A stretch of DNA of 64,000 bases from a virus (Duplodnaviria > Caudoviricetes), in IMG/VR virus record IMGVR_UViG_3300030104_006170; one strand, written 5' to 3'. Of the stretch, positions 8,199-62,600 are shown piece by piece. The stretch's first letter is position 1. Each line of letters starts with the position of its first letter. The notes beneath the pieces are model-generated. The model was not told the origin of the DNA, ran no database searches, and saw only the letters and a program-made list of their open reading frames with translations. The position numbers and the translations under genes are program-made.

Positions 8199-8435
8199 AT
8201 GGCTTGTAAAAATTGTAAAGAAAAAACTTCTAAATATTTAAAACAGTTAAATAATATGGGTGCAAATGTTAATTTTGACACCGAAGCTAGAAAAAAACAA
8301 ATCTTAGAGAAGACTTGGGACTCGTCAATGGGTAAACTTAGGATGTGGGAACGTTTGGTGATAATTCTATTTGCTTGGATTCCTTTGATAATTGGTTACT
8401 TCACTATAATTAGATTTATAGTTTCATTATTCTAA
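8199..8435 (+). CDS. Small membrane protein with N-terminal CxxC (MACKNC)
   Basis: C-terminal hydrophobic helix. Start at 8199 preferred because the ATG at 8181 overlaps the ATATTTAT motif (8175-8182). Confidence 0.7.
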   Translation: MACKNCKEKTSKYLKQLNNMGANVNFDTEARKKQILEKTWDSSMGKLRMWERLVIILFAWIPLIIGYFTIIRFIVSLF

Positions 8436-46456: not shown

Positions 46457-47377
46457 CTAAAAGTTAGTTATTGTACTAAACGCTTGACTAAAATCAATAT
46501 TGTTTCCTCTATTTTGTTTTACTTCATATAATTGTCCATTAAACTGGTCTCTTACTTCATATAAGTCATATTGCATGTATATGTTGTCAGCACCAGATAA
46601 ATCATAGAGAGTGTAAATTCCATTATCGATAGATTTGGCTTGATTTCCATACAGTGCGATAGCTAGTGTATCGAAATCGTGGTCTACCATTTCTATGTCG
46701 AGTACGGTTGGGTTAAAGTAAGTGTTAGTGATTATGACTGATTGTCCTGGTTGTCCTATAAAAGGAATAGCATTTGGGTTATTAGATGGTGCACTTGTAG
46801 GTGTTAGGGTACAATAAACCAAATTAGTCTTTGCATTTGTATATACGTATCTAGGTGATGTTTGACTAGGGTTGGTGTTATTTTGTTCTACTGTTGTACA
46901 ATAAAAATTAGAAGTAACTATTCTGTAAAAATTATTTATTTTTGCTCCACTATCTGCATCTAAGTATTCTATTCTATAACCTACTAAATCCATAGGTGAA
47001 AATCTATTTCTAAATTGTATAGGTATACTATTTAAATCAAATACCAGACCTTTCACATTAGGTAGTGATGATAATATACCACAATCTAATATAGTAGTTC
47101 TTATTTCTATTGGTCTTATATAAACAGTATATACACCTTTATTAGAAAATACAGCTGAAGGTAATTTTAAATCGTATAAACCACCCAATATTTCTCCTGC
47201 TGGTCCACCTGTTTGTAGTCCATTATGTACTATAGGTGTTAATACACTTGCTGCGTTTATTTCAAAAACAGAAACAGGGGAACTTGCATCTCGGTTTGCC
47301 TGTTGATGTACTAATATTTGTACGTCTTCAACTTTTACGTCCGCTGGTCTTTTAATTCCGTATGCTCCTAATGCCAT
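46457..47377 (-). CDS. Putative virion structural protein
   Basis: 306-aa ORF in the structural operon; beta-rich composition. Confidence 0.65.
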   Translation of the reverse strand: MALGAYGIKRPADVKVEDVQILVHQQANRDASSPVSVFEINAASVLTPIVHNGLQTGGPAGEILGGLYDLKLPSAVFSNKGVYTVYIRPIEIRTTILDCGILSSLPNVKGLVFDLNSIPIQFRNRFSPMDLVGYRIEYLDADSGAKINNFYRIVTSNFYCTTVEQNNTNPSQTSPRYVYTNAKTNLVYCTLTPTSAPSNNPNAIPFIGQPGQSVIITNTYFNPTVLDIEMVDHDFDTLAIALYGNQAKSIDNGIYTLYDLSGADNIYMQYDLYEVRDQFNGQLYEVKQNRGNNIDFSQAFSTITNF

Positions 47378-47380
47378 AGT

Positions 47381-47602
47381 TTATGGTTGTTTTTCTATTT
47401 TATAATATCCGTACCCGTGTAGTTCTAAATCTCCAGTACTATTTATTTGTCCTAATCTTTGTGGTTTTTCAAATACGGTTATTTTACCTCTTTCAATAAA
47501 TATATTTGACCTTACTTCCGGTCTTTGACAAACATTCATTAATACCTCTAATTTTGTTAGGGGTAAAATACATCCTACTGTTTTTACTTCTGTTAATGCC
47601 AT
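47381..47602 (-). CDS. Small structural-module protein (73 aa)
   Basis: TKLEVLMNV...PEVRSNIFIERGK...QRLGQI...GDLELHGYGYY; has its own ATATTTAT upstream (47616-47623). Confidence 0.7.
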   Translation of the reverse strand: MALTEVKTVGCILPLTKLEVLMNVCQRPEVRSNIFIERGKITVFEKPQRLGQINSTGDLELHGYGYYKIEKQP

Positions 47603-47631
47603 TACTTATTTTATAATAAATATCATAACAC

Positions 47632-48264
47632 TTATTTCTCTACTAGTTCTGATGTAGGAAAATATTTTTTATATTCTCTTAGATAAATTTCATCGTCGTA
47701 TTTAAAACCATTATTAATTCTGGTTATTTGTTTTTGTGATGGAAATTGTAGTTTAGTAACCCACAGTCCATTAATAACTTCTTCTTCTATATTCCAATTA
47801 GAAACTATCAATCCGTTTCTTTTAACGTGTTCTGCATAGGCAAGACCTACTTTTTCAAAACTATATGGTTTACAATTTTCTATACCTCCTCTGTAACAAA
47901 TTTTATTTAGTTCTACATTTTCTCTATTTTGGTAATAAATGTCTATGTAAAAATCACAATCCTCTAATGCTATTCTAGATAAATCTATCAAAGTATCCCT
48001 AATTAGTTCTAAAGTATTCTCACCATCGTCCACTAAAATAATATCTATATCCCAACTTTGCCAAGGCAGATTCCCTTTTATATAGTTTGGGAATGAACCA
48101 GTTAGTAATAAGTCAAAATTATTAAAATATGGTTTTTCTTCTATAATACTTAACCATTTTTCAAATCTTCTTAACGTTGGTCTATATATTTTCTTATTTA
48201 CTGATATAGGCCCTACTTCAAATCTAAAAAATCTTCCAAATTCTATTTCTCTCCTTATACTCAT
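47632..48264 (-). CDS. Pol-beta superfamily nucleotidyltransferase-like protein
   Basis: LLLTGSF...SWDIDIILVD (GS plus DxD) and a third acidic position in YIDIY. Confidence 0.6.
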   Translation of the reverse strand: MSIRREIEFGRFFRFEVGPISVNKKIYRPTLRRFEKWLSIIEEKPYFNNFDLLLTGSFPNYIKGNLPWQSWDIDIILVDDGENTLELIRDTLIDLSRIALEDCDFYIDIYYQNRENVELNKICYRGGIENCKPYSFEKVGLAYAEHVKRNGLIVSNWNIEEEVINGLWVTKLQFPSQKQITRINNGFKYDDEIYLREYKKYFPTSELVEK

Positions 48265-48265
48265 A

Positions 48266-51200
48266 TTAACTTAACTCTGTAGGGCCATCACTCACAGAAG
48301 GCATACATTTACATTTATTCCAATCCCAGTAATATCCCTTAGCACAACTTTCAGTTTGTATACAAGGTTCTTCTGTTGGTTCTAAATCATCATCGTGTGG
48401 ACCAATTATTATTGGGACACAACTACAATCTGCTTGTGACCAAACTTGTCCCAGAGGACATGCCCACGATGGTGGTACACAGCACTTGGATGGTGATTGT
48501 GAAGTCCAACCAATACCCAACCAAAACTCACAATCACAAGGAACAGATGAGGTATTTAAGGTTTGGTAACTCCAAGTACCATCTTTTTTAAGTTTTCCAC
48601 AACACTCTTCACATGGTTGGTCTGGTGGTGGACAAGGTGCATTTTGACATGCTTGTAAACTACTATATGCACCACCTTGTGTTGGTATACAGTCATAATT
48701 ACTTGGGTTACCTAAAAGTGGTCTATGTACACAATCGTATTTTAGAGTACCACCGTTATTACATGGGAATACCCCTGTAGATGAACAACTAACCCAACCA
48801 GTCCATTTTCCGGTAAATGTAGAATACATTCCATAATATTCTAATATTCCATCACCATTCATATCGTATATACTACAAGCTTGAGATTGGGAATGAGGGT
48901 CAGATGCCCACGCCTCACCAAAATCATCTACGTCTGATGATTCCATACAACAATAACAACAACCGTCAGTTGGGTCTACGACACACTGGTTATGTGTAAA
49001 ATGTTGATGTCCTACGGTTTTCCACTGTAAAGGTAAAGTTGCTCCCCAGTTAGTAGCCATGTAAGTGTCACAATTATCACAATCTACTGTTGTCCCGGTA
49101 GTTGAGTTGCAAGGACCTCCGTCAGTTGTGATTTTACAACCCATCCACATTCCCCCACCTATATTTACACCTACATGTAATGATGGTTGATGTTGGGATT
49201 TACAGATTGGTTTTGATGGTGTAGGTCCTGAATTTCCTGGACCTGAACCTCCTGGACCTGAACCTCCTGGACCTGAGTGAGATATAGTACCATCATTCCT
49301 TGTAATTGCATGGTCGTCATCATGTGGGTCTGGTCCGGTAAAAGCTCTAACACAACAATAACAACAACCGTCAGTTGGGTCTGTCACACAATCATTCTCT
49401 ACATAGTGTGGGTTGAATGTGGAGTACCATATACCTTCATAATCTATAGGTCCTGATAAATAACCAGATAAGGTTTGTGCACAATCTTCACAACCTGATT
49501 TACAATCTGCTACACATAGTGATAAAGCGTTTGGTCCTTGGTATTGAGCTGTACCTGTATTATTTTGAACACAATTACACGTACCAGGACAATTAACACA
49601 ATCGTAACCTATATCTGGTGGTGTTGTTGGACATAGTGGGTCACAAGGCCACCATATTGGTCCTCTATTTTGAGCATTTTGTTCTTGGGTTGTTGCTGGT
49701 GTTGTTGTACCATTATAAAATAATCCTAATAAGTGGTTTTGGTAGATTTGACTAGGTGAATAATTCATAATATCACTACCAGTAAAATGACAACTATCAC
49801 AAACTAAGACATAACAACAATCATCATATGGGTCTTGGACTATATCAAATGCATTATATATGGTTGCTGTAAACCAAAGACCCACAATATTTGTTGAGGC
49901 TAGTGGAAGAGTTTGTGTAAAACCTATACTATATGTACCATTATGTTTGATGTAAGTAGGTGTTATAAAAGAAGACGGTGGACACTCTTTAGCACAGTCA
50001 TCTGATTGTATTTCACAACAATTTGATATTGGTATTCCGTTTTGACAATCAGATAGGGAAGAATATGTACCAAACAGAGGATTGGCTACACATTTACATA
50101 AACCATTATTACCCACAACACAGTCCCATCTTGTTTTTCCTGTATAACAACACTCATTAACTTGAGCTTCACAATCTGCTTGACTTGCGTATCCACCACC
50201 AGGAGAAGCTGTTTGTACACATTTACACCCTGTTGGTGTACCGAAGTCTATACATTCCCATTCTTTAGTTACTCCAGTATAACAACAATTATGGTTTACA
50301 GCTGTCTGACAATCGTGTAAAGTTGCATATTGGTCAAAAGGCCCACCTAGAACACAATTACAATCAGGTGTGCATTTCCATCTATCTGGCATTGTGTTAC
50401 CTGAACAACATGTAGTTGGGTCATTTTCACAATCAAATAAAGCGTTTGGTCCGGTATAACTACCCATCCCTGCTGGTACAACAACACATTCACATTTAAA
50501 ATTATGTGCACCTACAGGACCTATAACTGGAATTTGTCTACACTCATACTCATCATACCTTACCGTACAACAATTTTGAGAATTATAACACTCTGTTTGA
50601 GAACTAAATCCTGTTATATCATTTGGAATGAATACACAGTCACAAATTTTTGGGTCGCATTTCCAACTACCACAACAAGGGTCATTATTTAAAGTAGCTT
50701 GACAATCGGGTAGATTATTAAAAGCTCCTGTAGGACCAGTAATCATAACACAAGTACATGGACTTTGTCTACACTCACATGGGTCTAGTGTTATAGTCAT
50801 ACATTTGTCTCTAGTTTTAGAACCCCATACAAGATTTATCCCTAAACACACATCATCAAAACTACTTGATAAACTCAATAGTGTACCGGTTGGTGATGTT
50901 ACACCAGCACCTGCTAAACTAGTAATCATGGAACTCCATGTGTTATAAGTTTGAGGTATCCCTAAGCTCATTCCAGCACTGATATGTATACCTATTGGTC
51001 CACCTGGAGTAACTAATGGTAATCCATTGTCTAAACATGGATTAGTTGGACTAAATGGGAATCCCCCATAAGGAAATTTAATATTGTATATATTAGTAGT
51101 TTGTAAGTAGGGTACCCCACTAGGATTTCCTATCATTTGTAGTACGTCATGTTGGTCTAAGAGTGTGGTTGTTGGTGTAATTTTTGTTAGGTTAGAACAA

Positions 51201-54200
51201 CTATCAGTACTAACACCTGGTATACAATCATAAGTGTTTTGTATAACACCTGGCACACATTTAGGGTCACACGGTACCCACTGTAAACTTCCTGTTCCAC
51301 CTCCTGGCCAAACAGGTGTATTTGTACTTAAATCATTAATGTATGCTTGATAATAGAAATAAGGTGGTATTGTCCAGTCTTGAGAGTTTTCAGAAACATT
51401 CACATAACAACATCTAGTATTATCAAAATTAAATGTCACAACATCACCTGGATTATACGCTTGTCCTGAAACCCACGCTGGAGCTCCAGTAATCATATTA
51501 ACTGGTGTAGAACCAAGTACCCAACTAGCAGTACCTACGTCCCACATTTGATAAGTTATTGGACTATTTGTAGTACATTCATAACATTCACAACAAGTAC
51601 CATCATCACCTAATAAAGTTAATCCTTGAACGTAGATATCACAATCAGCCATATTAGAAAATGGGTAAGGTGCACATGAAGGTGAAATTGGTGCAAGTAC
51701 AAAAGTACATTGACATTGTGGTACTGGTTGTACACAGTCCCCACAAACAAAATTACATTCGTTAGTACATGCTGCAGCATTAGTACCATAGAAAGACACA
51801 CATGGATTACCATCACTTCCTGTTGGTGCTGCACCTATATAAGATATACATCCGTCAATTGCGTGACAACAATATTCTGTTTGTGGTTCAAAACAAGTTT
51901 TACTACCAGTTATTGTAAATTGTTGTTGTCCACAATCACCTGGTGATAATGAACTTGGTAATCCTGTCCCACAAGATGCAGTTCCACCACTACAGAATTG
52001 GTCACCCCATGAACATGCTACAACCGCTGGGTCACCACATAAATCACAGAAACCAGTACCTGGAGGTGCACAATCACAACAAAATCTACAAAATTCTTGA
52101 CATTGTGCTTGTGATGGGAATCCCTGACCTACAGGTAAATTACCTAAAGCTACTGCCCAATTATAGTTATTGTTTGGGTCTGAAGGTCCACCAGCTCCTT
52201 GACCATAAGCTTGTGATTGATATGATGATGATTGTGATGCGAAATATGAACTAGGTTGACATGGTTGAGACCCTGGGGTATTGTAAAGTCCGGCATCCGC
52301 ACCCGCATGGTCACACCACCATTCTTCAACTTGGTTTTGACATAAACAATCGGTATTTGCCAATTCACAAGCCGCAGCTGAAGGATAAGTAACTGCCGCT
52401 AAAGACATCGGTATGAATTGACAAGTTTGTGCACCTTGGGTATTACACTCCCAGGTACACCATTCTTGACACCCACTTAAACTAGAGAATGTACCTCCGG
52501 TACCATAGACTGGATAACAACCTACACCCCCCACACAAGGATTACCATTTACAGTTGGACAGTTACAACTATGGTCACATTCCCAAGTGGTTATACCAGT
52601 TGTAGAACCAGTACAACAATCAAATAATCCTGTGGACAATTGTGTTTGACATGTATCTAAAGAATCGTAAGGCCAAAAATATGAACTTGTAACCTGGAAA
52701 ACTATACCTGGTTGTACAGGTGGATAAGTAAATGGAAATGGTGAATACCCATTAAAATAAATCCCTAAATCACCTGTTCCTGGTGAATATATATCATTTA
52801 AATAATCTTGTAAAACTGTGCAGTTTGAAATTTCTGCTGGTCCTCCTGTTGGTGGTCCAGGGTCTGCACAATAACAATCAGCTCTACATTGGTCATTGGA
52901 AACACCAATTAATGGTGTACCACAAGTAGACGCGGTATAACAATTATTTTGTGTTTGCCATATAGAGATGTTCATGGCAGCTGGTGGGTTAAACACACAA
53001 TTAGAAGTTACACAACCAGAAGTTGTACATTGATATGTTTGTGCTGAAGTAGGTCCTTCACAAGGACCGCAAGGGTCTCCAATAACCGGTGTTGGTGTAG
53101 ATGGGTCATAGGATGGTAACCTTTCACATGTTTGCCAACAATTTGGTGTTCCGTCAGGGTAATCTCCATCATCTGGTGGACTAGAGTCACAATCATAACC
53201 TGTTCCCGTTGTATCAGGAGGACACATACATATCCAACAACATTCAGCTGTATTTGCGTCACCATAACTTACCGTTTCAAACATACTATAAGTGTTGGCG
53301 TTAGACCATGGTCCTGACCAAGTAAAAGCTGTGGTTATTGGTATTCCATTAATTGTTAACCAATCTTGACATGCACAATTACAAGTTTCTTCTAGTGGTG
53401 CACAACAAGTCATACCTGTTGTACTTAGTGGGTCTGGACATAATGAGTTAACACAATCTACCATATCACAATAAGGTAAACCTGGATGGTCCGCAAAACA
53501 CTGTACAATACCAGTTAGTCCATTCATTGTATTTACGTAAGCTGGAGAACAACAGTTAACGAAACCAGGACCAGTTGTATCATCTAAATCAGTTTGTGAT
53601 ATCCAATAACATGGGGTTTGTCCACCTCCACCACCTTGTAGTGCAGGTCCAGTAGTTGTAAAAGATGTGTAACCCAGGTATCCAGCTTGTAGTGGGTCAT
53701 CCTCACATACCGCCCTACAACATTCTGTTGCATTACAACATTCTTCAAAAGAAGTATAACCTGTAGGATTACCAGCTGGGTCTGTTGGTGAACCTGGAGA
53801 CCAAGTAACACCAACTTGTGTCATTAAGTATAGACTAGCATAATACATACACCCACCAACTTGTTGTCCTATTTGTGCGGGTGGATTGGTGTCATCATAA
53901 ACAAAACAATCATATCCACCAGGACATGTACAAGCACTTTGACATTGTTGTGCGGAGAGGAAGGTTGGTACGTTTGTCCACGCTGCTGGAACCCAAGGGT
54001 CAGTACCTGTATTAGATACTGGCCAGTAAGGACAATCTAGAGCATTTGTAACTGGGTCTTGATATGGGTAACATGGTACGTTTGAACCGTTTATAACATT
54101 TAAACAGTCACAAACATAACATTCTGTCGCACAAGAACATACCATTTCACAGTCTTGTAATCCTTGTGGTGTATATGGGTAACCACAATTTAATGTATAA

Positions 54201-56950
54201 CAAGGTTGACAGGGGTCACAAATTGGGTCACACTTGTATCCACAAGGGGTGTTACCTACACCTAACCATTGTGGGTTAGCAGCGTAACAGTCAGCTTCAG
54301 TTGTATAACCTGTACCAACAAATACCGGTACACATCCTTCTTCACAATTATAAACCCACATAGTATAATCACAACAACCTGTATAGGTTCCTGCTGAGTT
54401 TGTAAATCCAGCGTTACAATCATTTATATTATAAGGGTCAAAAAATAATTCAAAGGTAAATGCCGCATAGTCTATAAAGTTTAAAAAAGGTGCTGGTGTA
54501 GGTGGTAAAGTTTGCATTACAGTAAACACATTATCTACATAAAATGTTGTACCATTTATAAGGTCATCAGTACATGAAAGTAAACCACAACAATTATTAG
54601 AACTTGCTGGGGTACTAGTAACACAAGAATACGCTGGTGGTTCACACCACGCTAAACAATCAAGTTCATTATCAAAAACCGGACCTTGTGTTGGGTCTAA
54701 TGCACTAGGGTCATTGTATAGTGGGTGTGCTGATGTCATAGCTGAACATCCTTGACAGGAATATTGGTCGATACAAATATATCTATCTTCACAACAATTA
54801 CCTAAGTAAAAAGTATCCATACAATCTTCAAATGCGGCAAAACCTACACTTGTACAAGGTCCCGTACTAGTTGACCCCGTACCAGGTACTAGTTGACATG
54901 AAAGACTAGATGCTGTTAAAGCTGATACTGGTGGACACACCCAACTAGAACATCCAATATAGTCCCAGTATTGATTGTTGGTTAACCCAGATGGTGGTGG
55001 TAAAGTACCACCCGACAAAGCTCTATAACAATTACCCCATTGACCTAAGGTAAATTGTCCTGTAGTATATACATTACCATTACTATATACTCCAGCTGGA
55101 CCTACTGGTGAGATAGTTGGATAAGCGTTCCAAGTGTTGGTTGGGTCATAACAAGGTATGGATGTAAACTCTGGACATGCTTCACATTCTGGGGTACAAG
55201 CCTCCCAAATATGTTCCGTAGGTTGTCCATTATTCCACCAAACTCCTTGTACTAAGTCTGTTGGTTTTATACCAGCCCAAGGGTCTATAGTACCACCTGT
55301 CTGATTTATATCTTGTACTGCCATATAACAACAACATTCACCCCACGTTGAGTCAAATACTATATCTCCTTTAACATAATTTGTTGTTGCAGACCATTCA
55401 CCCCAATTAGTATTAATCATTGGGTTAAAACTTATTGGTTGTGGTAGGTTTGTTACCCTATCTATATATTCATCTTTTGTTTCACAGTAAGTACAATCAC
55501 CTATTTCACATTTTACACAATCAAAAGCACCAAAAGCAAAAGCATCTAAACCACAACTTGTAGCTTCGTATAAAGTAACACCATTACTAAAATCATAAAA
55601 TGTTATTGGTGTGTTAGTACCTATACTAATTGTGTAAGCGGTATATTGTGTATTTTCCACAGTAATCCTACCCATAACTCCCTGTTCTATTTGATTAGTT
55701 ATTGGATTTATTACTTCACCCATTAATGGTACATCTACATTTATCTGGTAACCAGGTGGTAAATTACCGGTTTGTAATGATGTATATGACTGAAATGCCC
55801 CTAGCAAACTTTGTGTATTACCTGTAACCTCAAAACAGTTACTATTATTTCCACCACCAAATATAGGGGACATACCACTATATTGTAAGATGTCAGTACC
55901 AGAATCTAGAGGTGAAAAAGGATAAGCTCCAAAATATGTATTAGTACCTATTGGTCCACTAGGACCTACTACAGGTACATTACTAGGTGGTATACCACCA
56001 GAAGCTTGTAATGTATTATAAGGCATAAAGGGTACTGTTATAGCCTGAGATACTGATGTTGGTCCCCACTCATTTTCATGTGTTATGGTAATTCTTCGTG
56101 TACCTACACCCGCATAAGTGTGTGGTACAGGATTTGTTAGATTAGGGAATTGTAAAGTTTCACAACAAGGGTCACCAAATGCGTTGGTACATGGTGGAAC
56201 TGGACAATCACAAGGACAGTCTCCCCAATTTATAGTATAAGGAGAATTCTGATAACTCTTATAGTAACCAAAATCTGTGGTATTATAAATTTGTATCTGG
56301 TTACCCATAGCTGTAGTAGCGGTAACTACAAAATTAGAAAAAATATCTTTTTGTCCCAAATTTCCGTCCCAAATATCGTAATGCCCTATATCATTAAAAT
56401 CTTGGTCTAAAAAAACTGGAACTTGATGTAAATCATTAAAAACAGGTGGTGGGCAAAAACAAGATATTGTATTTGGTGTTAGGTGTGCATTAGTTTGGGA
56501 ATTTAATGGTTGTGAGAGTGTAGAATTTGTTAAAGAAAACACACTTATTAAATCGTCGTAACTTTCACCGGTAAATGTCATTACCCCAGATTGGTATAAA
56601 TTTAACCCAGCAAATATAACATAAGGATGAGACTCCACATCTAAACAAAATGGTTGATTTAATGTTGGTACATTACCATATGGTGGTGGTGCACCCATTA
56701 CTGGCATAGTAGTAGTATCATTTAATAGGATACATGGATTTGTTGACGAACATCCAGTTAGTTCTGTTGGGAAGTTATTCATGTCACCTTGTAAAGCGTC
56801 CTGTACTTGACTAAATGTAGAGTTGTACATTGTTAATCCTGAACAGTTAGGACTTGTATTAATAGGGTAGAAATTGGTTCCACCAGTACAAGGTACTGTG
56901 TAGTAAACACTAGGATTACTTCTTTTTATTCTATATTTGTATACTTCCAT
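48266..56950 (-). CDS. Giant (2894 aa) Cys/Pro/Thr/Gly-rich mosaic repeat protein; putative tail fibre/adhesin
   Basis: Uninterrupted 8.7-kb ORF. N-terminal PKD-like segment (YTINWGD...HTYAGVGTRRITIT), seven W/Y..Y..GD.V CBM5/12-like modules, many x-C-x-C...YSSLxxCxxxCC modules. Confidence 0.85.
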   Translation of the reverse strand: MEVYKYRIKRSNPSVYYTVPCTGGTNFYPINTSPNCSGLTMYNSTFSQVQDALQGDMNNFPTELTGCSSTNPCILLNDTTTMPVMGAPPPYGNVPTLNQPFCLDVESHPYVIFAGLNLYQSGVMTFTGESYDDLISVFSLTNSTLSQPLNSQTNAHLTPNTISCFCPPPVFNDLHQVPVFLDQDFNDIGHYDIWDGNLGQKDIFSNFVVTATTAMGNQIQIYNTTDFGYYKSYQNSPYTINWGDCPCDCPVPPCTNAFGDPCCETLQFPNLTNPVPHTYAGVGTRRITITHENEWGPTSVSQAITVPFMPYNTLQASGGIPPSNVPVVGPSGPIGTNTYFGAYPFSPLDSGTDILQYSGMSPIFGGGNNSNCFEVTGNTQSLLGAFQSYTSLQTGNLPPGYQINVDVPLMGEVINPITNQIEQGVMGRITVENTQYTAYTISIGTNTPITFYDFSNGVTLYEATSCGLDAFAFGAFDCVKCEIGDCTYCETKDEYIDRVTNLPQPISFNPMINTNWGEWSATTNYVKGDIVFDSTWGECCCYMAVQDINQTGGTIDPWAGIKPTDLVQGVWWNNGQPTEHIWEACTPECEACPEFTSIPCYDPTNTWNAYPTISPVGPAGVYSNGNVYTTGQFTLGQWGNCYRALSGGTLPPPSGLTNNQYWDYIGCSSWVCPPVSALTASSLSCQLVPGTGSTSTGPCTSVGFAAFEDCMDTFYLGNCCEDRYICIDQYSCQGCSAMTSAHPLYNDPSALDPTQGPVFDNELDCLAWCEPPAYSCVTSTPASSNNCCGLLSCTDDLINGTTFYVDNVFTVMQTLPPTPAPFLNFIDYAAFTFELFFDPYNINDCNAGFTNSAGTYTGCCDYTMWVYNCEEGCVPVFVGTGYTTEADCYAANPQWLGVGNTPCGYKCDPICDPCQPCYTLNCGYPYTPQGLQDCEMVCSCATECYVCDCLNVINGSNVPCYPYQDPVTNALDCPYWPVSNTGTDPWVPAAWTNVPTFLSAQQCQSACTCPGGYDCFVYDDTNPPAQIGQQVGGCMYYASLYLMTQVGVTWSPGSPTDPAGNPTGYTSFEECCNATECCRAVCEDDPLQAGYLGYTSFTTTGPALQGGGGGQTPCYWISQTDLDDTTGPGFVNCCSPAYVNTMNGLTGIVQCFADHPGLPYCDMVDCVNSLCPDPLSTTGMTCCAPLEETCNCACQDWLTINGIPITTAFTWSGPWSNANTYSMFETVSYGDANTAECCWICMCPPDTTGTGYDCDSSPPDDGDYPDGTPNCWQTCERLPSYDPSTPTPVIGDPCGPCEGPTSAQTYQCTTSGCVTSNCVFNPPAAMNISIWQTQNNCYTASTCGTPLIGVSNDQCRADCYCADPGPPTGGPAEISNCTVLQDYLNDIYSPGTGDLGIYFNGYSPFPFTYPPVQPGIVFQVTSSYFWPYDSLDTCQTQLSTGLFDCCTGSTTGITTWECDHSCNCPTVNGNPCVGGVGCYPVYGTGGTFSSLSGCQEWCTWECNTQGAQTCQFIPMSLAAVTYPSAAACELANTDCLCQNQVEEWWCDHAGADAGLYNTPGSQPCQPSSYFASQSSSYQSQAYGQGAGGPSDPNNNYNWAVALGNLPVGQGFPSQAQCQEFCRFCCDCAPPGTGFCDLCGDPAVVACSWGDQFCSGGTASCGTGLPSSLSPGDCGQQQFTITGSKTCFEPQTEYCCHAIDGCISYIGAAPTGSDGNPCVSFYGTNAAACTNECNFVCGDCVQPVPQCQCTFVLAPISPSCAPYPFSNMADCDIYVQGLTLLGDDGTCCECYECTTNSPITYQMWDVGTASWVLGSTPVNMITGAPAWVSGQAYNPGDVVTFNFDNTRCCYVNVSENSQDWTIPPYFYYQAYINDLSTNTPVWPGGGTGSLQWVPCDPKCVPGVIQNTYDCIPGVSTDSCSNLTKITPTTTLLDQHDVLQMIGNPSGVPYLQTTNIYNIKFPYGGFPFSPTNPCLDNGLPLVTPGGPIGIHISAGMSLGIPQTYNTWSSMITSLAGAGVTSPTGTLLSLSSSFDDVCLGINLVWGSKTRDKCMTITLDPCECRQSPCTCVMITGPTGAFNNLPDCQATLNNDPCCGSWKCDPKICDCVFIPNDITGFSSQTECYNSQNCCTVRYDEYECRQIPVIGPVGAHNFKCECVVVPAGMGSYTGPNALFDCENDPTTCCSGNTMPDRWKCTPDCNCVLGGPFDQYATLHDCQTAVNHNCCYTGVTKEWECIDFGTPTGCKCVQTASPGGGYASQADCEAQVNECCYTGKTRWDCVVGNNGLCKCVANPLFGTYSSLSDCQNGIPISNCCEIQSDDCAKECPPSSFITPTYIKHNGTYSIGFTQTLPLASTNIVGLWFTATIYNAFDIVQDPYDDCCYVLVCDSCHFTGSDIMNYSPSQIYQNHLLGLFYNGTTTPATTQEQNAQNRGPIWWPCDPLCPTTPPDIGYDCVNCPGTCNCVQNNTGTAQYQGPNALSLCVADCKSGCEDCAQTLSGYLSGPIDYEGIWYSTFNPHYVENDCVTDPTDGCCYCCVRAFTGPDPHDDDHAITRNDGTISHSGPGGSGPGGSGPGNSGPTPSKPICKSQHQPSLHVGVNIGGGMWMGCKITTDGGPCNSTTGTTVDCDNCDTYMATNWGATLPLQWKTVGHQHFTHNQCVVDPTDGCCYCCMESSDVDDFGEAWASDPHSQSQACSIYDMNGDGILEYYGMYSTFTGKWTGWVSCSSTGVFPCNNGGTLKYDCVHRPLLGNPSNYDCIPTQGGAYSSLQACQNAPCPPPDQPCEECCGKLKKDGTWSYQTLNTSSVPCDCEFWLGIGWTSQSPSKCCVPPSWACPLGQVWSQADCSCVPIIIGPHDDDLEPTEEPCIQTESCAKGYYWDWNKCKCMPSVSDGPTELS
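48947..49382. repeat. 31-bp perfect direct repeat (48947-48977 and 49352-49382)
   Basis: ACAACAATAACAACAACCGTCAGTTGGGTCT occurs twice and encodes DPTDGCCYCC on the minus strand. Confidence 0.9.
49227..49276. repeat. 15-bp tandem repeat (CCTGGACCTGAACCT), about 3 copies, encoding a GPGGS linker
   Basis: Read directly; protein sequence SGPGGSGPGGSGPGNSGP. Confidence 0.9.
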
Positions 56951-56953: not shown

Positions 56954-57898
56954 TTAAGGATTTACATATTCAAAAAATTTTATTGGTGTTCCATTGGGTA
57001 CTTGTAGCGTACCTGGTACTGCTCCACTTGGAGTTTGACCTGGTAAACCAGTCCCTTTTACTCCACCACCACCCCCCATAGCCATAATTGCTTCATTAAA
57101 TTCAGTCACCACATAACGATATTTTGGGTCGGTTGTAGATGCATTACTGGGATTTATATATAATTTAACTTTATAATAGAACCATTCTGGGTAACTTAAT
57201 ATTTCACCGTTTACAATTTCACTTAGAGTTGGTTGTTGGTTTATCATATTGGTTACTTTACCAGTTTTTGCGTTAAAAAATTTACAACTCATATAAAACT
57301 CATTAATTTCTGTTAGTTCCCTATCTTTTAACCATTGTATATAATAATTTTCACTTCTACCATGTAGGGGACCCAATAAAGCAATAGGAACATACACCCC
57401 ATACATTGGTATTGGAATGTTGTCTGCTATTTGTGAGTAATATTCTGTGGGGTCTTGTAATGGGTCTACTGCTGTTTCTACCTTTATACAATTATTTAAA
57501 GACATTATATTGGTGAACATTATTTTTTGTTCTTTTCTTAATGGTGAATCATAAAAATCAAACTTAAAAAAACTTCTAGTAAATGCTTTTTTAGGTTTTG
57601 CTAATTCTTTATCTGCAAAACCTAAAACGTTAAAGTTTGGTGTGGGTATTGGGTATTCTTGATTTGCATAATCCCAAAAATTAAATTCATAAGATATGGT
57701 ATTACCACTAATATTATTTTTATAAGCATATCTAGTTGTTTCATAATCTTGTATAACATTTATATTATCTTGTAACTCGACTTCTTCCCAAGTTCTAACT
57801 AATTGTTCGTTACCTATTTCATCAAAAGTTTGACCTATAGGTATAGTTATAGACTTATCTTTAGTAGAAGCTTTTATGTTTAATCTATTGACAGCCAT
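56954..57898 (-). CDS. Putative virion structural protein
   Basis: 314-aa ORF in the structural operon; FFKFDFYDSP...YMSCKFFNAKTG. Confidence 0.65.
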   Translation of the reverse strand: MAVNRLNIKASTKDKSITIPIGQTFDEIGNEQLVRTWEEVELQDNINVIQDYETTRYAYKNNISGNTISYEFNFWDYANQEYPIPTPNFNVLGFADKELAKPKKAFTRSFFKFDFYDSPLRKEQKIMFTNIMSLNNCIKVETAVDPLQDPTEYYSQIADNIPIPMYGVYVPIALLGPLHGRSENYYIQWLKDRELTEINEFYMSCKFFNAKTGKVTNMINQQPTLSEIVNGEILSYPEWFYYKVKLYINPSNASTTDPKYRYVVTEFNEAIMAMGGGGGVKGTGLPGQTPSGAVPGTLQVPNGTPIKFFEYVNP

Positions 57899-59669
57899 CT
57901 GTGTATTCAGTTAATATACTTATTGTTCCTGAGGTTAGTGGGATTAATGCTGGTCCTACAGCCTCTATTTTAAATTCTAAATTATGGTATGGGTAGTGTG
58001 CATCATTTAAATAAGGATAACTCACACCATTATCCCCATCCTCATAAGCTTCTACCGGTAAAATTTCTCTCCACCTAAATGTTTCCTCTGATAAAGAATA
58101 AACAGCATACTGGGGTGATGTAAACAGACTATCATTATAACTTATATAATTTGAGAATTTTCTTATAGGAATTTTGTGGTGTGGGTTGTATTTAAATATA
58201 GATTCTACAAAATCATACCCTGGTGTACCTCCTACTTCATACATAGTATCCCTATTAAATTTTAGTGAATGCCCTATTTCAGAAATTACCCTTTCTTTTA
58301 ATTCAAATGGGTTATACTCAGCAAAAGCACCCCTAAATGTAGAACCACTAAGTGGTAGTGGATTAACTCCTTGATTTCCAGTTTGTGTTAAATTAACTGG
58401 TGATGTCCCATTATCCACAAATGGGTCCACAACACCATTCTTTTTAAAATTCCAACCCCAACCATAACCTGCTGGAGAATTGACTCCCGGATTCCAATCC
58501 CATATGAGATTTCTATTTGTAGTTAAAATTGTTAAATAAAATTCAGTTAATGGTCTATTAAATTGGTCATAGTAGTCATCACTATTAATATTATAATTAC
58601 AATTCCATAAAAATGAATCGTAGGCTTGGGTTAGTACAGATTTTTGTATGTAATCTGGTGTTCTTTTTCTAGGAAATACCCTACCTTTTTTATTATATAT
58701 TCCTCTTTCAAACCCTGTTTTATCTACTGTAAGGTCATTTGGGTTTGTTATTAGCTTATGTATTTGGCAATAATATTCAGATTTTGTTTCCAACATATTT
58801 TCTGGATTAATTACTCTTTTAAGTGTACCCACTGGATTTGCTGGTATTGATGTTACGTCTAGACCAACTGTTGTAATATTCATCACGTAGTCCTCTGAAT
58901 TTTCCAAACCGTTACCCAAATAATCTACTTTAAATATAGTTTGTGGACCTGCTGGGCTTGGGAAGGTTACTGGAATAGTAACATTAGTCATTAGATTTGC
59001 ACTACCCATTGTAGTAGCTCCTGACTGTATTTCTATATATTCTCCTGGTAATACCCCGTGTCTTACTGGTGTGATTATTTGTAAAACTTCCTTACCATCT
59101 GTATTGGTTGTTATAGGTATAAAAGGTATACCATCTCCCGATACAAACTGCATACCAGAATTCGTAGAATAGTCGGTATAGTACATCATTCTTTGATTGG
59201 AGTCTGCATCGTTAACATAAGATATATATTGTACCCAATTATCTTGATGTGCTAAAAGTGGTTCCCAACCTGCTTGACTTGCAAAAATACCATATCTTTT
59301 AGGTGGTATTATTGTAAATGTACTATCCGGTGGTAAACCAGAACAAGTGGTTGGTGGTACACCTGCTATTTGTGGACAACCCAAAAAATCTGGAATAAAG
59401 TACATTGACCTCATAAATGTAGTATCCTGAGTACTCCCACTAATTATATTATTGTAAAGTATATCTATTTTTCCATATAACCTATATTGTGTTGAATAGG
59501 CCCTTTCAAAATCAAATTGGTCTCTAAGGTTCAAAACTAAATTTCTATCCCCCTCATGTATTTGTTTTTGTGTAGATTCTAAAAATGGTTGTAACTGCAC
59601 GTCGTTATTTGGTGAACCAGCAAATCTAGCTTCACCTCTTACAATTCTTATGTTTTTTTCGTTACTCAT
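57885..59669 (-). CDS. Putative virion structural protein
   Basis: 594-aa ORF in the structural operon; FDFER...YRLYGKI, YPYLNDAHY. Confidence 0.65.
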   Translation of the reverse strand: MSNEKNIRIVRGEARFAGSPNNDVQLQPFLESTQKQIHEGDRNLVLNLRDQFDFERAYSTQYRLYGKIDILYNNIISGSTQDTTFMRSMYFIPDFLGCPQIAGVPPTTCSGLPPDSTFTIIPPKRYGIFASQAGWEPLLAHQDNWVQYISYVNDADSNQRMMYYTDYSTNSGMQFVSGDGIPFIPITTNTDGKEVLQIITPVRHGVLPGEYIEIQSGATTMGSANLMTNVTIPVTFPSPAGPQTIFKVDYLGNGLENSEDYVMNITTVGLDVTSIPANPVGTLKRVINPENMLETKSEYYCQIHKLITNPNDLTVDKTGFERGIYNKKGRVFPRKRTPDYIQKSVLTQAYDSFLWNCNYNINSDDYYDQFNRPLTEFYLTILTTNRNLIWDWNPGVNSPAGYGWGWNFKKNGVVDPFVDNGTSPVNLTQTGNQGVNPLPLSGSTFRGAFAEYNPFELKERVISEIGHSLKFNRDTMYEVGGTPGYDFVESIFKYNPHHKIPIRKFSNYISYNDSLFTSPQYAVYSLSEETFRWREILPVEAYEDGDNGVSYPYLNDAHYPYHNLEFKIEAVGPALIPLTSGTISILTEYTDGCQ

Positions 59670-62600
59670 TATATTACTGTATCAGCTAATTCTTCATCAA
59701 CATATTTTCTCACAAAGGTGTTAAATGATGTAGCACCTGGTCTTAATCCAAAATAATAAAATAGTGGTTGGGAGAACACATAGGACCTACTGTCTGGAAT
59801 AGTACCATTCATGACAGGATAATTATTGCCGGCAAATGTAAATGGTGGGTTACCCATATAGTGTTGGAAGTTTCCGTCACTCACATATGGTGCAGATGCC
59901 GGTGCTGGATGTAGTACCGAACCGTCTTCTTCATCAAATGATATTGCTGGTAGTATAGACATTGCTGGTCCTGGTATACCAAATGCATATCTATATTCTC
60001 CAGTAGTACCTAACCAGTCATTCCAAACTGTACCCCAACCTCCGTATGGTTGACCACCTACGGTAGCAGTTGAACTGACATTATCCAAATGCCATGGATA
60101 AAATGGAACATTCTGACTGGATGCGGATAATTCCATTGTTAAACAATCTATCAAATCTTGACCATTCATAATCACTTGAGTGGAAGCCGTAAATAATAGT
60201 GGCTCCCATAAAAGAGTGTGTGTAAAGTTTCCTGGGTCATTTATGTCATTTACATTAAGTGCATTTGGCACATATGTACCCCCAACAAAATTTGGTGATG
60301 GGTATGTTAATCCACTATTTGGTGCTACATTTGATGGTGTTGTAGATATATTAAGTTGGTAATCACATTCACAAGCTGTCGTACCTACATTAGCTTCATA
60401 TCCTACCACACCCAACATACAGTTTTGCATAAGTGCTTGTGCGACATCACCACCAATTTCGTATTCTGGACGTGGGAAGAAAGTAGACATTGAAGCTAGT
60501 GGTTGTTGCATTTTAAGGTTATAGGTGTCAGAAACAAGTTCTGTAATGTCTTGGAATGTTGTACTGCCTATCTGGTCAGTAACTGAACATTCATTAACGT
60601 AATTAGGGTCCATACAGATTTGTTGTATACATTGATTTCTGGAACCCATATCTACCATTGTCGTTGGGAATAGTATGTGTCTATCCATATCACCTTTACC
60701 GTGCATATCACTTGTGTTGTTACCACCCCAGAACTGATACCATGGTTTATAAACTCCGTCAGTATCACCAATATAATTACCTTGATTTACACCGATACCA
60801 CTAACTTGGAAAGGGGTTGACCTATAATAGAAAGCATGTTCTGTTGGGTGTAGATAGGTTAATTTTTTACACCACGATGAATTGGTGGCATAGGTATCAT
60901 TTGCTGGGTCATACTCTACTTTAGCTCTAAACTGGAATTGGTATAAGAATCCACTTACCCAACTATTTTCCCAAAAATAATTCATAACACCATTACACAA
61001 TGCTTGTGCTATTTTTTCCCTTCTAGTCCATTCTATTAAAACTTTAAGATTGTAGTTTGGTCCGATACAAGCTGGGCTAAAACATATTAATTTTACATAA
61101 CACCCACCACCAGCAACCCCATCATTTTGTGTGCCTGATGTTTGGGGGTCATTGACATCATCCGACCTAAAACCATAATGGTCTGGACAACAAACTCTTG
61201 TTTCGTCACTTTCGGAACAACAATCGTGTTCCCATTTACCACCAAAGTCATCACCAGTAGCACCATTACCTGGTGGACATTGTGGAGCTGCTGGACAATC
61301 TGGAGGACCAGATGCTGTGGTATTACCGGATGCTCCCCATGGTAATGAACCAGGGCAAGGCCATTGTGAGGCTAGGTATATAAGAGAATCTGTTACTGCC
61401 ATATCACCCATAGTCCTACATAAACATTTTTCACATTCAGGATATTTTGTTTGTCTTAAAGTAAACAATACAAATCCCATTCTTAAACCAAAATATCTAC
61501 AATCAGTACCACAACCAAAACAATTACCACCACTAATACAAATTTGTCCACATTCTTCTGGTGGTGCACCATTAGGTCCAATTAGGGAAGCCATATCTAA
61601 TATTGTAAAACCCCAAAGAGTGATATGAATACAATATATTGCACACCAAAGCCAACATAATAACCACATAATAAATAATATAACCCCCAGTATTAAGCTT
61701 AAGAATACAGCTAGCGTTGATATTAGTATTGTTAAGAACATGTAAATCATCCCTAGAAAATCTATAAGGAACATCCAAAGGAATACCATTAAACTAGGAG
61801 CTCTTACCGCACTATTTATTGGGAAAAACATTGCTGTGGTAGCACATTGTTGGTCCGCTTCAGGTAATATATTTTTTATACCCACAAATTCTCTTCTACC
61901 TCCATGTTTAATATGGTCATGAAATTGTGAAAAAGTATATACCCTGTTAAATGTCATGTCATAAAAAACATCTTTTGCTGCAGGCATTAAATTTCTTTGT
62001 GCCCAAGGATTGTAGTCACTATAATTTACAGAAAAAGCGTAAGAAGAAGGGTCTATACCTGGCCAATCCCCATTATCGTCACCTGCCCATGGGTCATAAA
62101 ATTCCCTGATGTTAGGTACTAGGTAACTAGCTATTCTTCTTTGTCTTGCTCCTCCCGTTGCTTGTTCAGGTCTTATTCTAAATCTACATCTCGCTCTAGT
62201 AGGTACCCCTATACTTGGGTCATCTGAAAGTACCATTTCCCCAAATTCATTAGTTGTCATATAATCTAAATTCATTGGTATGTGGACTAAGAAAGAACCT
62301 GTATCGTCAATTACCCTACCCCCATTAGGTAAGTAAAATCTTTCAAGTATTGGGACTTCTCCACCTAGAGGTGCACCCCACCCTCCTGCTGTATAAGCGG
62401 GGTAAGCGTTTGGGTCATCTTGGAAAAATGGGGTATACCTTATACAATCTATTATCCCTGGTTTGGATATTAAACTACATAGTTCACCCATTGCTGCTTT
62501 TGGTCTACAGTTTTTATTTACAGAATCTTTGTCAGTATCAGATGCGGTACTACCCATAAACACAGCATTAGGTTCTAATTTAAACCCTGTTTGTCCTAAA

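What the first reader, a model, noticed from the sequence alone, without database searches (positions are those of the whole stretch)
48266..56950. 2894-aa cysteine-rich mosaic protein resembling a eukaryotic extracellular-matrix protein in a bacteriophage
Seen: an intact 8.7-kb ORF, visibly more GC-rich than the left half of the window, in which Cys is roughly one residue in ten over long stretches (estimate by eye), with frequent CC, CxC and CxxC. A short conserved-looking N-terminal anchor and a PKD-like domain (itself interrupted by CPCDCPVPPC...CC) precede dozens of small repeats. Established: phage fibres are usually Cys-poor because they fold in the cytoplasm. Inference: a very long, flexible, disulfide- or metal-stapled capture fibre for polysaccharide or particle surfaces.
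Basis: partly seen in the sequence, partly recalled or inferred. Interest (0 to 1): 0.85.

Follow-up and report, generated by a model that had tools for sequence, protein, structure and literature searches.

The report
Giant cysteine-rich phage baseplate protein
An uncultured marine giant phage carries, at a fixed place among its tail-baseplate genes, an intact 2894-residue protein with 246 conserved cysteines. It is built from chitin-binding-type and small disulfide-type modules and is most likely a cross-linked adhesion fibre, a design not described for phages at this scale.

Summary
Window 48266-56950 (- strand) is one intact 2894-aa ORF with 246 Cys (8.5%), against 0-4.6% in the other ORFs, and only 2.1% Lys+Arg.

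It is not a misassembly: sequencing runs of 14 studies hold it near-identically. It is not foreign either: its GC3 matches its neighbours, and the extra GC sits at codon position 2.

It belongs to a large undescribed family, with at least 45 full-length relatives and at least 557 matching stretches in IMG/VR. The gene always sits at the same place, 8-11 kb downstream of gp25 and gp6/Baseplate_J.

Homologues of its PKD core form a series at that place:
- 360-396 aa with 0-1% Cys
- about 540 aa with 3%
- 1000-1250 aa with 4.5-6.4%
- 2400-3000 aa with 7.4-8.8%

So the giant is an ordinary baseplate-block protein extended with Cys-rich modules. Folding shows a PKD domain, tandem CBM5/12-type modules and hairpin-helix mini-modules that weakly resemble Kunitz domains. 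The Cys are 89% conserved and are gained and lost in pairs, which favours disulfides.

Best reading: a baseplate-anchored, disulfide-stapled glycan- or host-adhesion fibre. Virion location, oxidation state and ligand are untested. No eukaryotic matrix domain was found. First-stage notes of this scan flag this same stretch; the scan holds nothing like it on other DNA.

The parts
48266..56950 (-). Intact 2894-aa ORF (P0001): the giant Cys-rich protein
   Evidence: A 99% identical copy lies in IMG/VR record G001. Runs of 14 studies hold it.
56441..56878 (-). D1, residues about 25-170: family-specific N-terminal domain, the presumed baseplate attachment. Fold not identified.
   Evidence: AF2 pLDDT about 90. 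Found only in the giant family. The N-terminal motif is conserved in all members.
56006..56338 (-). D2, residues about 205-315: PKD/Ig-like beta-sandwich carrying the CPCDCPVPPC...CC insert
   Evidence: Foldseek 4l9d TM by target 0.71. VIA Z 7.9-8.1.
55547..55843 (-). D3, residues about 370-468: beta domain. Together with D2 it forms the core shared with 360-1250-aa proteins of other phages.
   Evidence: The best BFVD hit is a 364-aa 'PKD domain-containing protein' of an uncultured phage (E 2e-16).
54251..55483 (-). Residues 490-900: conserved Cys-rich block. It holds 28 conserved Cys columns, two tandem CBM5/12 modules and hairpin-helix modules.
   Evidence: Present in all members. 24 of 37 invariant columns are Cys. 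AF2 pLDDT 82, pTM 0.60. Fold matches.
55232..55414 (-). CBM5/12-like module 1 (residues 513-573)
   Evidence: Own HMM. Covered by the tandem chitin-binding type-3 matches in AFDB, model residues 18-177.
54956..55108 (-). CBM5/12-like module 2 (residues 615-665)
   Evidence: VIA Z 5.9, rmsd 1.4 over 46 residues to the CBM of chitinase 4tx8. ChiB CBM5 rmsd 1.8-2.0 over 46 residues.
53156..53326 (-). CBM5/12-like module 3 (residues 1209-1265)
   Evidence: Own HMM, E 3e-11. By sequence only.
51338..51493 (-). CBM5/12-like module 4 (residues 1820-1871)
   Evidence: Own HMM, E 2e-16. Pfam CBM_5_12 at E 0.052, below the cut-off.
50012..50779 (-). Tandem array of six six-Cys modules (residues 2058-2313) with framework C-(3-15)-CxC-(13-18)-C-(5-8)-CC
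   Evidence: The array is kept at six copies in the close clade, has fewer copies further out, and is absent in distant members.
49730..49894 (-). CBM5/12-like module 5 (residues 2353-2407)
   Evidence: Own HMM, E 1e-13
49301..49450 (-). CBM5/12-like module 6 (residues 2501-2550)
   Evidence: Own HMM, E 2e-13
49202..49330 (-). Gly/Pro/Ser-rich, Cys-free linker (residues about 2541-2583)
   Evidence: Read from the translation. Inference only.
48878..49039 (-). CBM5/12-like module 7 (residues 2638-2691)
   Evidence: Own HMM, E 1e-10
56954..63331 (-). Three upstream genes of the same block (1220, 594 and 314 aa), abutting or overlapping the giant. They are conserved in size and order in all 80 related loci.
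   Evidence: No known family found.
63445..64000 (-). 3' part of the gp6/Baseplate_J-like gene, cut by the window end. gp25 lies further upstream, outside the window.
   Evidence: In the 99% identical record L006: PF04865 Baseplate_J E 3e-10 and PF04965 GPW_gp25 E 1e-11.
46457..48264 (-). Downstream genes: 210 aa (present in only some relatives), a conserved 73-aa ORF at about 47379-47600, and a conserved 306-aa protein

Best explanation
The gene encodes a structural protein of the tail baseplate of an uncultured marine T4-like jumbo phage.

Its N-terminal third (D1, a PKD domain, D3 and the conserved block to about residue 900) is the conserved, baseplate-proximal part. The remaining 2000 or so residues are a faster-evolving, outward-pointing chain of small modules: seven CBM5/12-type modules, twelve or more six-Cys hairpin-helix modules and other Cys-rich units.

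The roughly 246 Cys mostly form intramodule disulfides. These can only become stable once the particle meets oxygenated seawater. They would turn the chain into a stiff, protease- and shear-resistant fibre.

The CBM-type modules give it many weak binding sites for polysaccharide, either on the host surface or on chitin-rich particles where hosts live. This would be the first, reversible capture step of infection.

Shown: the gene is real and native; its place in the baseplate block is conserved; the folds of the PKD and CBM5/12 modules; the conservation and paired turnover of the Cys; and the graded extension from a small Cys-free homologue.

Inferred: presence in the virion, disulfide rather than metal chemistry, the ligand, and the copy number and length of the fibre.
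For: (1) Location.
- In the 99% identical record, gp25 and Baseplate_J lie directly upstream. The 1218-, 594- and 314-aa genes and the giant follow, abutting or overlapping.
- The same order holds in four distant relatives and in all 80 IMG/VR loci.
- In five phages that have only the short homologue, it sits 8-11 kb downstream of gp25 on the same strand.

(2) Series. Homologues of residues 175-478 run from 360-396 aa (0-1% Cys) through about 540 aa (3%) and 1000-1250 aa (4.5-6.4%) to 2400-3000 aa (7.4-8.8%).

(3) Polarity typical of receptor-binding proteins. Identity to relatives falls from 0.94 to 0.64, or from 0.7 to 0.23-0.33, going from the N to the C terminus. Distant members share only the first 23% or so.

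(4) Folds.
- PKD domain.
- Tandem CBM5/12: Z 5.9, rmsd 1.4 over 46 residues. AFDB rows are named chitin-binding type-3, chitinase and chitodextrinase.
- The best PDB Foldseek hits are phage fibre and baseplate proteins: the 7-7-1 tail fibre 9rkv_M (E 1.5e-4) and the Milano receptor-binding complex 8fqc.

(5) Cys behaviour.
- 89% identity at Cys, against 28-61% for 12 other residue types.
- 226 of 247 conserved Cys columns are invariant across 14 proteins of 53-99% identity.
- 28 conserved Cys columns in residues 490-900 are intact in 45 of 47 members. The one substituted member lost exactly two, C787 and C860.
- 71% of variable Cys columns have a partner with the same presence pattern within 60 columns, against 16-43% for other residues.
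- 68 of 89 distinct tandem repeats have exactly six Cys.

(6) Precedent. Phage virions cross-linked by disulfides exist, namely Milano and 7-7-1 (PMC10811340, PMC12796354).

(7) Real and native. Runs of 14 studies hold the gene. GC3 equals that of the neighbours, and 239 of 246 Cys codons are TGT.
Against: - No virion proteome, micrograph or expression data exist. One 151-nt contig in a metatranscriptome is too little to count.
- Beyond gp25 and gp6, none of the flanking genes could be matched to a known baseplate protein. 'Baseplate' therefore rests on gene order.
- The domain D1 that should dock the protein has no identified fold.
- The CBM5/12 fold is also a common building block of phage fibres, for example in Pa193, 7-7-1 and Pam1. 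It does not by itself show sugar binding.
- Phage assembly is cytoplasmic, where disulfides are disfavoured. No sulfhydryl oxidase or DsbA was found in five partial relatives.
- Whole-protein Cys counts are not preferentially even: 36 of 60.
- The similarity to Kunitz domains is weak (Z 3-3.9).
Confidence: 0.55

Rival explanations
1. Same place and role, different chemistry. The Cys bind metal ions (Zn, Cu, Cd or Fe) in thiolate sites or clusters. This would let the modules fold in the reducing cytoplasm and might make the fibre a metal carrier.
For: - Cytoplasmic assembly. Cytoplasmic Cys-rich domains are normally metal sites (established knowledge).
- CC, CxC and CxxC motifs are frequent, as in metallothioneins.
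- No oxidase was found in the relatives.
Against: - Cys turn over in pairs, not in threes or fours.
- The module framework has six Cys with a variable first loop and no paired CxxC knuckles.
- The modules are rich in aromatic residues and are predicted as folded hairpin-helix or CBM units.
- His is only 1.1%.
- The particles live in oxygenated seawater, where free or Zn-bound thiolates at this density would oxidise (inference).
Confidence: 0.2
2. It is not part of the particle. It could be an assembly scaffold or length-determining factor for the baseplate or fibres, or a protein released at lysis that acts outside the cell, for instance as a decoy or by sticking debris or particles together.
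For: - Virion association is untested.
- The published description of a probably related lineage (moraphages) found no tape-measure gene (PMC12619734).
- The protein has no signal peptide but would be released at lysis (by reading the N terminus).
Against: - Its fixed place inside the gp25-gp6 block, abutting or overlapping its neighbours.
- Tape-measure proteins and scaffolds are helical and Cys-poor (established knowledge). This protein is made of beta-rich binding-type modules.
- A conserved N terminus with a variable C terminus is the pattern of an attached receptor-binding protein.
Confidence: 0.12
3. Artefact: a misassembly, a chimera with eukaryotic DNA, or a spurious open frame.
For: None, beyond the unusual composition.
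Against: - An 8.7-kb open frame in 31-39% GC DNA.
- At least 45 full-length relatives of 30-99% identity with conserved Cys.
- Independent assemblies from 14 studies.
- The phage's own codon usage.
- Conserved gene order around it.
Confidence: 0.01

Closest known systems
Disulfide-cross-linked virions of Agrobacterium phages Milano and 7-7-1 (PMC10811340, PMC12796354)
   Same: - Contractile-tailed phages assembled in the cytoplasm whose baseplate, fibre, tail or capsid proteins are held by many disulfides.
- Their fibre and receptor-binding proteins are the best PDB fold matches to residues 490-900 here: 9rkv_M (E 1.5e-4) and 8fqc P1/Q1.
   Different: - There the Cys are 1.4-2.6% of the proteins, and many of the reported bonds link chains to each other.
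- Here one chain has 8.5% Cys, arranged in small repeated modules that look self-contained.
- No sequence similarity was found. tblastn of residues 1-500 against cultured phages found nothing.
CBM5/12 (chitin-binding type 3) modules of bacterial chitinases and chitin deacetylases
   Same: - Fold match: 4tx8 Z 5.9, rmsd 1.4 over 46 residues; ChiB CBM5 rmsd 1.8-2.0; the tandem pair resembles that of Vibrio chitin deacetylase.
- The signature W...Y..GD.V is kept in most of the seven modules.
   Different: - Pfam scores below its cut-off (14 bits against 26.2).
- Each module carries an added CC or CCC before the central Tyr.
- No catalytic domain is attached, and sugar binding is untested.
Phage Ig-like/PKD decoration and fibre domains, such as T4 Hoc in the 'adherence to mucus' model (recalled from memory, not tested here)
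   Same: A PKD/Ig-like domain on a virion-surface protein, thought to give weak glycan adhesion. That is the same kind of role as proposed here.
   Different: - Hoc is a small, Cys-poor capsid protein.
- Here the PKD domain lies in the conserved, baseplate-proximal part of a 2894-aa protein, and it carries a Cys-rich insert.
T4 baseplate periphery: gp7, gp8, gp9, gp10, gp11, gp12
   Same: The gene position, downstream of gp25 and gp6, is the position of these genes in T4. The function proposed here corresponds to that of the gp10-gp12 fibre network.
   Different: hhalign found no similarity between the giant's N terminus, or its neighbours, and T4 gp7-gp12 (probabilities below 1%).
Kunitz/BPTI and other small disulfide-rich extracellular modules of eukaryotes
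   Same: About 40 residues, six Cys, and a predicted beta-hairpin followed by a helix. VIA gives Z 3.0-3.9 to several Kunitz domains for residues 720-771 and 860-898.
   Different: - The Z-scores are in the noise range for small domains.
- The Cys framework (C...CxC...C...CC) is not that of Kunitz domains.
- There is no sequence match, and the origin is a phage.
- This is a resemblance in kind only.

Membership tests
CBM5/12 (Pfam PF02839, chitin-binding type 3) | Sequence match above the Pfam gathering score | tested here: not met
   Best match is residues 1825-1860, E 0.052, 14 bits against a cut-off of 26.2.
CBM5/12 (Pfam PF02839, chitin-binding type 3) | Small three-stranded beta fold of about 45 residues | tested here: met
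   Met for modules 1 and 2 only. VIA Z 5.9, rmsd 1.4 over 46 residues (4tx8). Foldseek 1ed7 TM by target 0.70. AFDB rows are named chitin-binding type-3. Modules 3-7 are assigned by sequence HMM only.
CBM5/12 (Pfam PF02839, chitin-binding type 3) | Binding of chitin or cellulose through exposed aromatic residues | not testable with these tools
The same fold also serves as a structural unit in phage fibres.
PKD domain (PF00801/PF18911) | Ig-like beta-sandwich of the PKD type | tested here: met
   Residues 205-315: 4l9d TM by target 0.71; VIA Z 7.9, rmsd 2.8 over 81 residues. By sequence, only relatives give weak sub-threshold PKD hits.
Phage baseplate or tail-fibre protein (virion component) | Gene inside the baseplate gene block, with conserved order | tested here: met
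   gp25 and Baseplate_J lie upstream. The order is conserved in 80 loci.
Phage baseplate or tail-fibre protein (virion component) | Homology to a baseplate or fibre protein of known structure | tested here: inconclusive
   Only module-level fold matches to fibres of 7-7-1, Milano and Pa193. No sequence or profile match to PDB, PHROGs or T4 gp7-gp12.
Phage baseplate or tail-fibre protein (virion component) | Physical presence in the particle | not testable with these tools
   Needs virion mass spectrometry or cryo-EM.
Disulfide-rich extracellular mini-domains (Kunitz-like, knottin-like) | An even, fixed Cys framework whose members change in pairs | tested here: met
   Six Cys in 68 of 89 distinct repeats. 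Paired gain and loss: 71% against 16-43% for other residues. C787 and C860 were lost together.
Disulfide-rich extracellular mini-domains (Kunitz-like, knottin-like) | Cys actually oxidised to cystines | not testable with these tools
This needs chemistry on the protein.
Eukaryotic extracellular-matrix protein families (EGF, TSP1, VWF and similar) | Match to any such Pfam family | tested here: not met
   The Pfam scan of the whole protein at E up to 1 gave only CBM_5_12.
Metallothionein-type or zinc-finger metal sites | Ligand sets of three or four Cys/His with CxxC knuckles, changing as sets | tested here: inconclusive
   There are 24 CxxC motifs, but the repeat framework lacks paired knuckles, His is 1.1%, and turnover is pairwise. 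Metal content was not measurable.

The most novel reading that the evidence does not exclude
A widespread lineage of marine jumbo phages has invented its own repertoire of disulfide-rich mini-domains, an analogue of animal extracellular-matrix and toxin modules. With them it has extended an ordinary 360-aa, Cys-free baseplate protein eightfold into a fibre with about 120 disulfides. Because the particle is built in a reducing cytoplasm, the fibre would mature by oxidation only after lysis. Adhesion or infectivity would then be gated by redox state: armed in oxygenated water, and disarmed or triggered by reductants at the host surface or in anoxic micro-zones of particles.
Probability: 0.25. 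Interest if true: 0.85.

Novelty: new variant of a known kind. Interest (0 to 1): 0.68.

Why it matters
Phage receptor-binding proteins are usually intertwined, Cys-poor trimers. A chain of about 246 conserved, paired Cys in small self-contained modules, fixed at a baseplate locus, would be a different way to build a phage adhesion organ. It recurs in at least 557 matching stretches of marine viral contigs.

It raises a concrete, testable question: how and when does a cytoplasmically assembled particle form some 120 correct disulfides? The graded series of homologues, from 360 aa with no Cys to 3000 aa with 8.8% Cys, is a natural experiment for how such modules are added.

If the CBM-type modules bind chitin or algal or bacterial polysaccharide, the protein would tie giant phages to marine particles, where their probable Bacteroidota hosts live. 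The compact six-Cys module may also be useful as a stable binding scaffold.

Tried and rejected
- PHROGs and Pfam on the giant and ten neighbours: nothing except Dockerin_1 in the 260-aa protein and a sub-threshold CBM_5_12.
- PHROGs on six short homologues: nothing.
- megablast and tblastn against 50,697 cultured-phage records with the giant's N terminus and with the 594- and 1220-aa neighbours: no match.
- PDB sequence and profile searches with the giant, the 1220- and 210-aa proteins and alignments A2-A4: no match.
- hhalign of A1, A2 and A4 against T4 gp7, gp8, gp9, gp10, gp11 and gp12: probabilities below 1%.
- ESM Atlas feature search with the repeat array and with the 1220- and 594-aa proteins: all scores below 0.85, leads only.
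- Complex prediction on three copies of residues 1-175: no verdict (score 0.00, controls not run). It says nothing either way about oligomerisation.
- Search for Erv1/ALR and DsbA in five partial related contigs (30-66% complete): none found, and the Erv1 control also rang nowhere. One ordinary thioredoxin was found. The contigs are incomplete, so absence is not shown.
- Whole-protein Cys parity: 36 of 60 even, p = 0.16, uninformative.
- T4 late-promoter motif TATAAATA: not enriched (13 found, 18 expected). The sigma-70 and terminator scans were below the shuffled controls.
- RNA evidence: no RNA holder was listed for the whole gene. One metatranscriptome gave a single 151-nt contig at 55788-55938 and the other gave none. 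This is not usable as evidence of expression.
- The six-Cys array as a query among proteins of 127-405 aa: only fragments of the same family.
- Folds of D1 (residues 25-170) and D3 (370-468): not resolved, because the PKD domain filled the hit lists.
- Literature searches for a Cys-rich giant phage baseplate or fibre protein: none found.
Full report
**1. The observation**

Window 48266-56950 on the - strand is one uninterrupted ORF of 2894 codons with an ATG start.
- It has 246 Cys (8.5%), reaching 10-14 per 100 residues over most of residues 700-2900. There are 29 CC, 29 CxC and 24 CxxC.
- It has only 62 Lys+Arg (2.1%). Thr, Gly, Pro, Ser and Asn are abundant.
- The other ORFs of 150 aa or more in the window have 0-4.6% Cys.
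- GC is indeed higher here, 0.38-0.42 against 0.26-0.33 on the left. GC3 is 0.181, the same as the neighbours at 0.16-0.23. The excess is at codon position 2 (0.524), and 239 of 246 Cys codons are TGT.

The composition of the protein, not a foreign origin, explains the GC.

**2. Is it real?**

- A 99% identical copy lies in an IMG/VR record of 61 kb. CheckV rates that record 19% complete, which implies a genome of about 320 kb.
- Logan contigs of runs from 14 studies (marine, seawater, sponge and riverine metagenomes) hold 30-100% of the gene's sampled 31-mers.
- The 5.8-billion-protein collection holds 45 full-length relatives of 1650-3000 aa at 30-99% identity. All have 6.2-8.8% Cys and 1.0-2.8% Lys+Arg.
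- IMG/VR holds at least 557 stretches encoding a relative of the N-terminal part.

Misassembly and eukaryotic origin are excluded as far as sequence can show.

**3. Where it sits**

All genes around it are on one strand and abut or overlap.
- In the 99% identical record the order is DUF5522, gp25 (PF04965, E 1e-11), gp6/Baseplate_J (PF04865, E 3e-10), 1218 aa, 594 aa, 314 aa, then the giant.
- Four relatives at 30-44% identity have the same order, followed by an optional 211-aa gene, then 73 aa, 306 aa and three proteins of about 1150-1350 aa.
- The 73-aa ORF is also present in the window.
- Every complete locus among the 80 fetched shows the same upstream genes.

This is the position of the peripheral baseplate and short-fibre genes in T4. 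No sequence relation to T4 gp7-gp12 could be shown. PHROGs, Pfam and PDB searches give nothing for the neighbours. 'Baseplate protein' is therefore an inference from strongly conserved gene order next to two recognisable wedge genes.

**4. Anatomy**

*Residues 1-480.* An AlphaFold2 model with 48 aligned sequences (mean pLDDT 71.5) shows three domains.
- D1 (residues 25-170) has pLDDT about 90. It occurs only in the giant family.
- D2 (205-315) is a PKD/Ig-like sandwich. Foldseek gives 4l9d TM by target 0.71; VIA gives Z 7.9-8.1.
- D3 (370-468) is a beta domain.
- D2 and D3 together are shared with many proteins of 300-1250 aa.

*Residues 490-900.* This block is present in every family member.
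- In the 47-sequence alignment, 24 of the 37 invariant columns are Cys.
- The model is good for such a sequence: pLDDT 82.3, pTM 0.60.
- Residues 507-666 are two tandem CBM5/12 modules. VIA gives Z 5.9, rmsd 1.4 over 46 residues to a chitinase CBM. ChiB CBM5 aligns at rmsd 1.8-2.0. AFDB rows are named chitin-binding type-3, chitinase and chitodextrinase.
- The best PDB Foldseek hits overall are phage fibre proteins: the 7-7-1 tail fibre (E 1.5e-4) and the Milano receptor-binding complex.
- Residues 720-771 and 860-898 are predicted as a beta-hairpin followed by a helix. They resemble Kunitz domains only weakly (Z 3.0-3.9).

*Module families found with my own HMMs.*
- One HMM finds seven CBM5/12-like modules, at 513-573, 615-665, 1209-1265, 1820-1871, 2353-2407, 2501-2550 and 2638-2691. 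Most carry CC or CCC just before the central aromatic residue.
- Residues 2058-2313 are six tandem modules of about 40 residues, with the framework C-(3-15)-CxC-(13-18)-C-(5-8)-CC.
- A broader HMM ties these tandem modules to dispersed copies at 723-770, 1305-1344, 1463-1498 and 2737-2784.

*What was not found.* Pfam finds nothing else. In particular it finds no EGF, TSP or VWF-type family.

**5. Evolution**

Homologues of the D2-D3 core, at the same genomic place 8-11 kb downstream of gp25, form a series:

| Length | Cys |
|---|---|
| 360-396 aa | 0-1% |
| about 540 aa | 3% |
| 1000-1250 aa | 4.5-6.4% |
| 2400-3000 aa | 7.4-8.8% |

- tblastn of the giant against five loci with the short homologues shows that similarity ends at about residue 470-550.
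- So the giant is an ordinary baseplate-block protein extended at its C terminus with Cys-rich modules.
- Within the giant family, identity falls from the N to the C terminus: 0.94 to 0.64 in a 78% relative, and about 0.7 to 0.23-0.33 in a 54% relative.
- The six-module array is kept at six copies in the close clade, has fewer copies further out, and is absent in distant members.
- A conserved proximal part with a fast-evolving distal part is the usual pattern of receptor-binding proteins (established knowledge).
- The Cys content of the 1150-1220-aa neighbour rises in step, from 1.0-1.7% to 2.8-3.5%.

**6. What the cysteines do**

- Cys identity across 18 family members is 89%, against 28-61% for the 12 other residue types tabulated.
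- Across 14 proteins of 53-99% identity, 226 of 247 conserved Cys columns are invariant.
- Changes come in pairs. Examples are columns 917/922, 2384/2387, 1829/1860, 2192/2237, 249/254 and 1318/1337.
- In residues 490-900, the one member with substitutions lost exactly C787 and C860.
- Of 51 variable Cys columns, 71% have a partner with an identical presence pattern within 60 columns. The figure is 16-30% for Trp, His, Lys and Arg, and at most 43% for any residue.
- Pairwise turnover, a six-Cys framework with one loop of free length, many aromatic residues and little His all fit small disulfide-bonded modules better than metal sites.

This remains indirect. Whole-protein parity is uninformative. 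No thiol oxidase was found in the incomplete related contigs.

Disulfide-cross-linked phage particles are documented for Milano and 7-7-1, whose 1.4-2.6% Cys is called unusual there (PMC10811340, PMC12796354). This protein has three to six times that density.

**7. Most likely mechanism**

A baseplate-anchored fibre or skirt.
- The conserved N-terminal third docks to the wedge.
- The distal 2000 residues form a chain of self-contained modules, stapled by disulfides once the particle is in oxygenated seawater.
- Seven CBM-type modules offer multivalent weak binding to polysaccharide on the host or on particles.

The good single-chain models suggest independent beads rather than an intertwined trimer. 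Oligomeric state is open, because the one complex job gave no verdict.

Rivals are metal-thiolate stabilisation (0.2), a non-virion role (0.12) and artefact (0.01).

**8. Lineage and host**

Earlier notes of this scan call the genome a marine T4-like jumbo phage with signs of a Bacteroidota host.

The window also carries DnaJ, a sigma factor, a primase and glycosyltransferases. This gene set, and a genome of about 320 kb, resemble the recently described 'moraphages'. Those reach 307 kb, have Bacteroidota hosts, and have gp25 and gp6 among their core genes (PMC12619734). I did not test membership. That paper does not mention this protein.

**9. Novelty and score**

Several elements are known: PKD and CBM5/12-type modules on phage fibres, and disulfides in phage particles. 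New elements are:
- the scale, 246 conserved Cys in one chain;
- the phage-specific six-Cys module;
- the graded extension series;
- the width of the family.

None of these turned up in the literature searched. I rate it a new variant of a known kind, with interest 0.68. The main gap is the lack of any direct evidence for virion location, oxidation state or ligand.

Noticed in passing
window 6940-8115 (-): A 391-aa protein matches Pfam DruA, a Druantia defence-system protein, at E 1e-25. It is a defence-family gene inside a phage genome.
   Followed up: no
window 3304-4628 (-), 8432-9433 (-), 17944-18282 (-): A CysK-like PALP enzyme lies next to a cyclophilin. There is also a complete DnaJ and a weak thioredoxin-like 112-aa protein with CPSC. 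These could supply cysteine and folding help for the Cys/Pro-rich structural proteins, but no link was tested.
   Followed up: partly
window 59669-63331 (-) and loci L006-L085: The 1220-aa protein two genes upstream has 3.2% Cys, with a Cys cluster in its middle. Across 80 loci its Cys content rises with the size of the giant's homologue: 1.0-1.7%, then 2.1-2.9%, then 2.8-3.5%.
   Followed up: partly
loci L044-L059, downstream of the 1000-1250-aa homologues: In phages with the mid-sized homologue, the large proteins downstream are themselves Cys-rich (2-4% over about 2500-3000 aa). Cys-rich modules may therefore be spread over several fibre genes there.
   Followed up: no
window 47632-48264 (-): The 210-aa ORF right after the giant is present in only some relatives (L002 and L003, but not L004 or L005). 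It has no known family.
   Followed up: partly
window about 47379-47600 (-): A 73-aa ORF lies in what looks like an intergenic gap. It is conserved in position and length in all four distant relatives examined.
   Followed up: partly
window 32494-33276 (-): A 260-aa protein with 4.6% Cys matches Dockerin_1 at E 7e-7, within the run of large fibre-like genes.
   Followed up: no
window 55788-55938: A single 151-nt contig from a seawater metatranscriptome is 100% identical to the gene. It is too little to call expression, and DNA carry-over is possible.
   Followed up: yes
window 1-492 (-): The first, cut ORF begins with a motif that looks by eye like the N terminus of a glutamine synthetase. This would fit the moraphage gene set (PMC12619734). 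It was not scanned.
   Followed up: no
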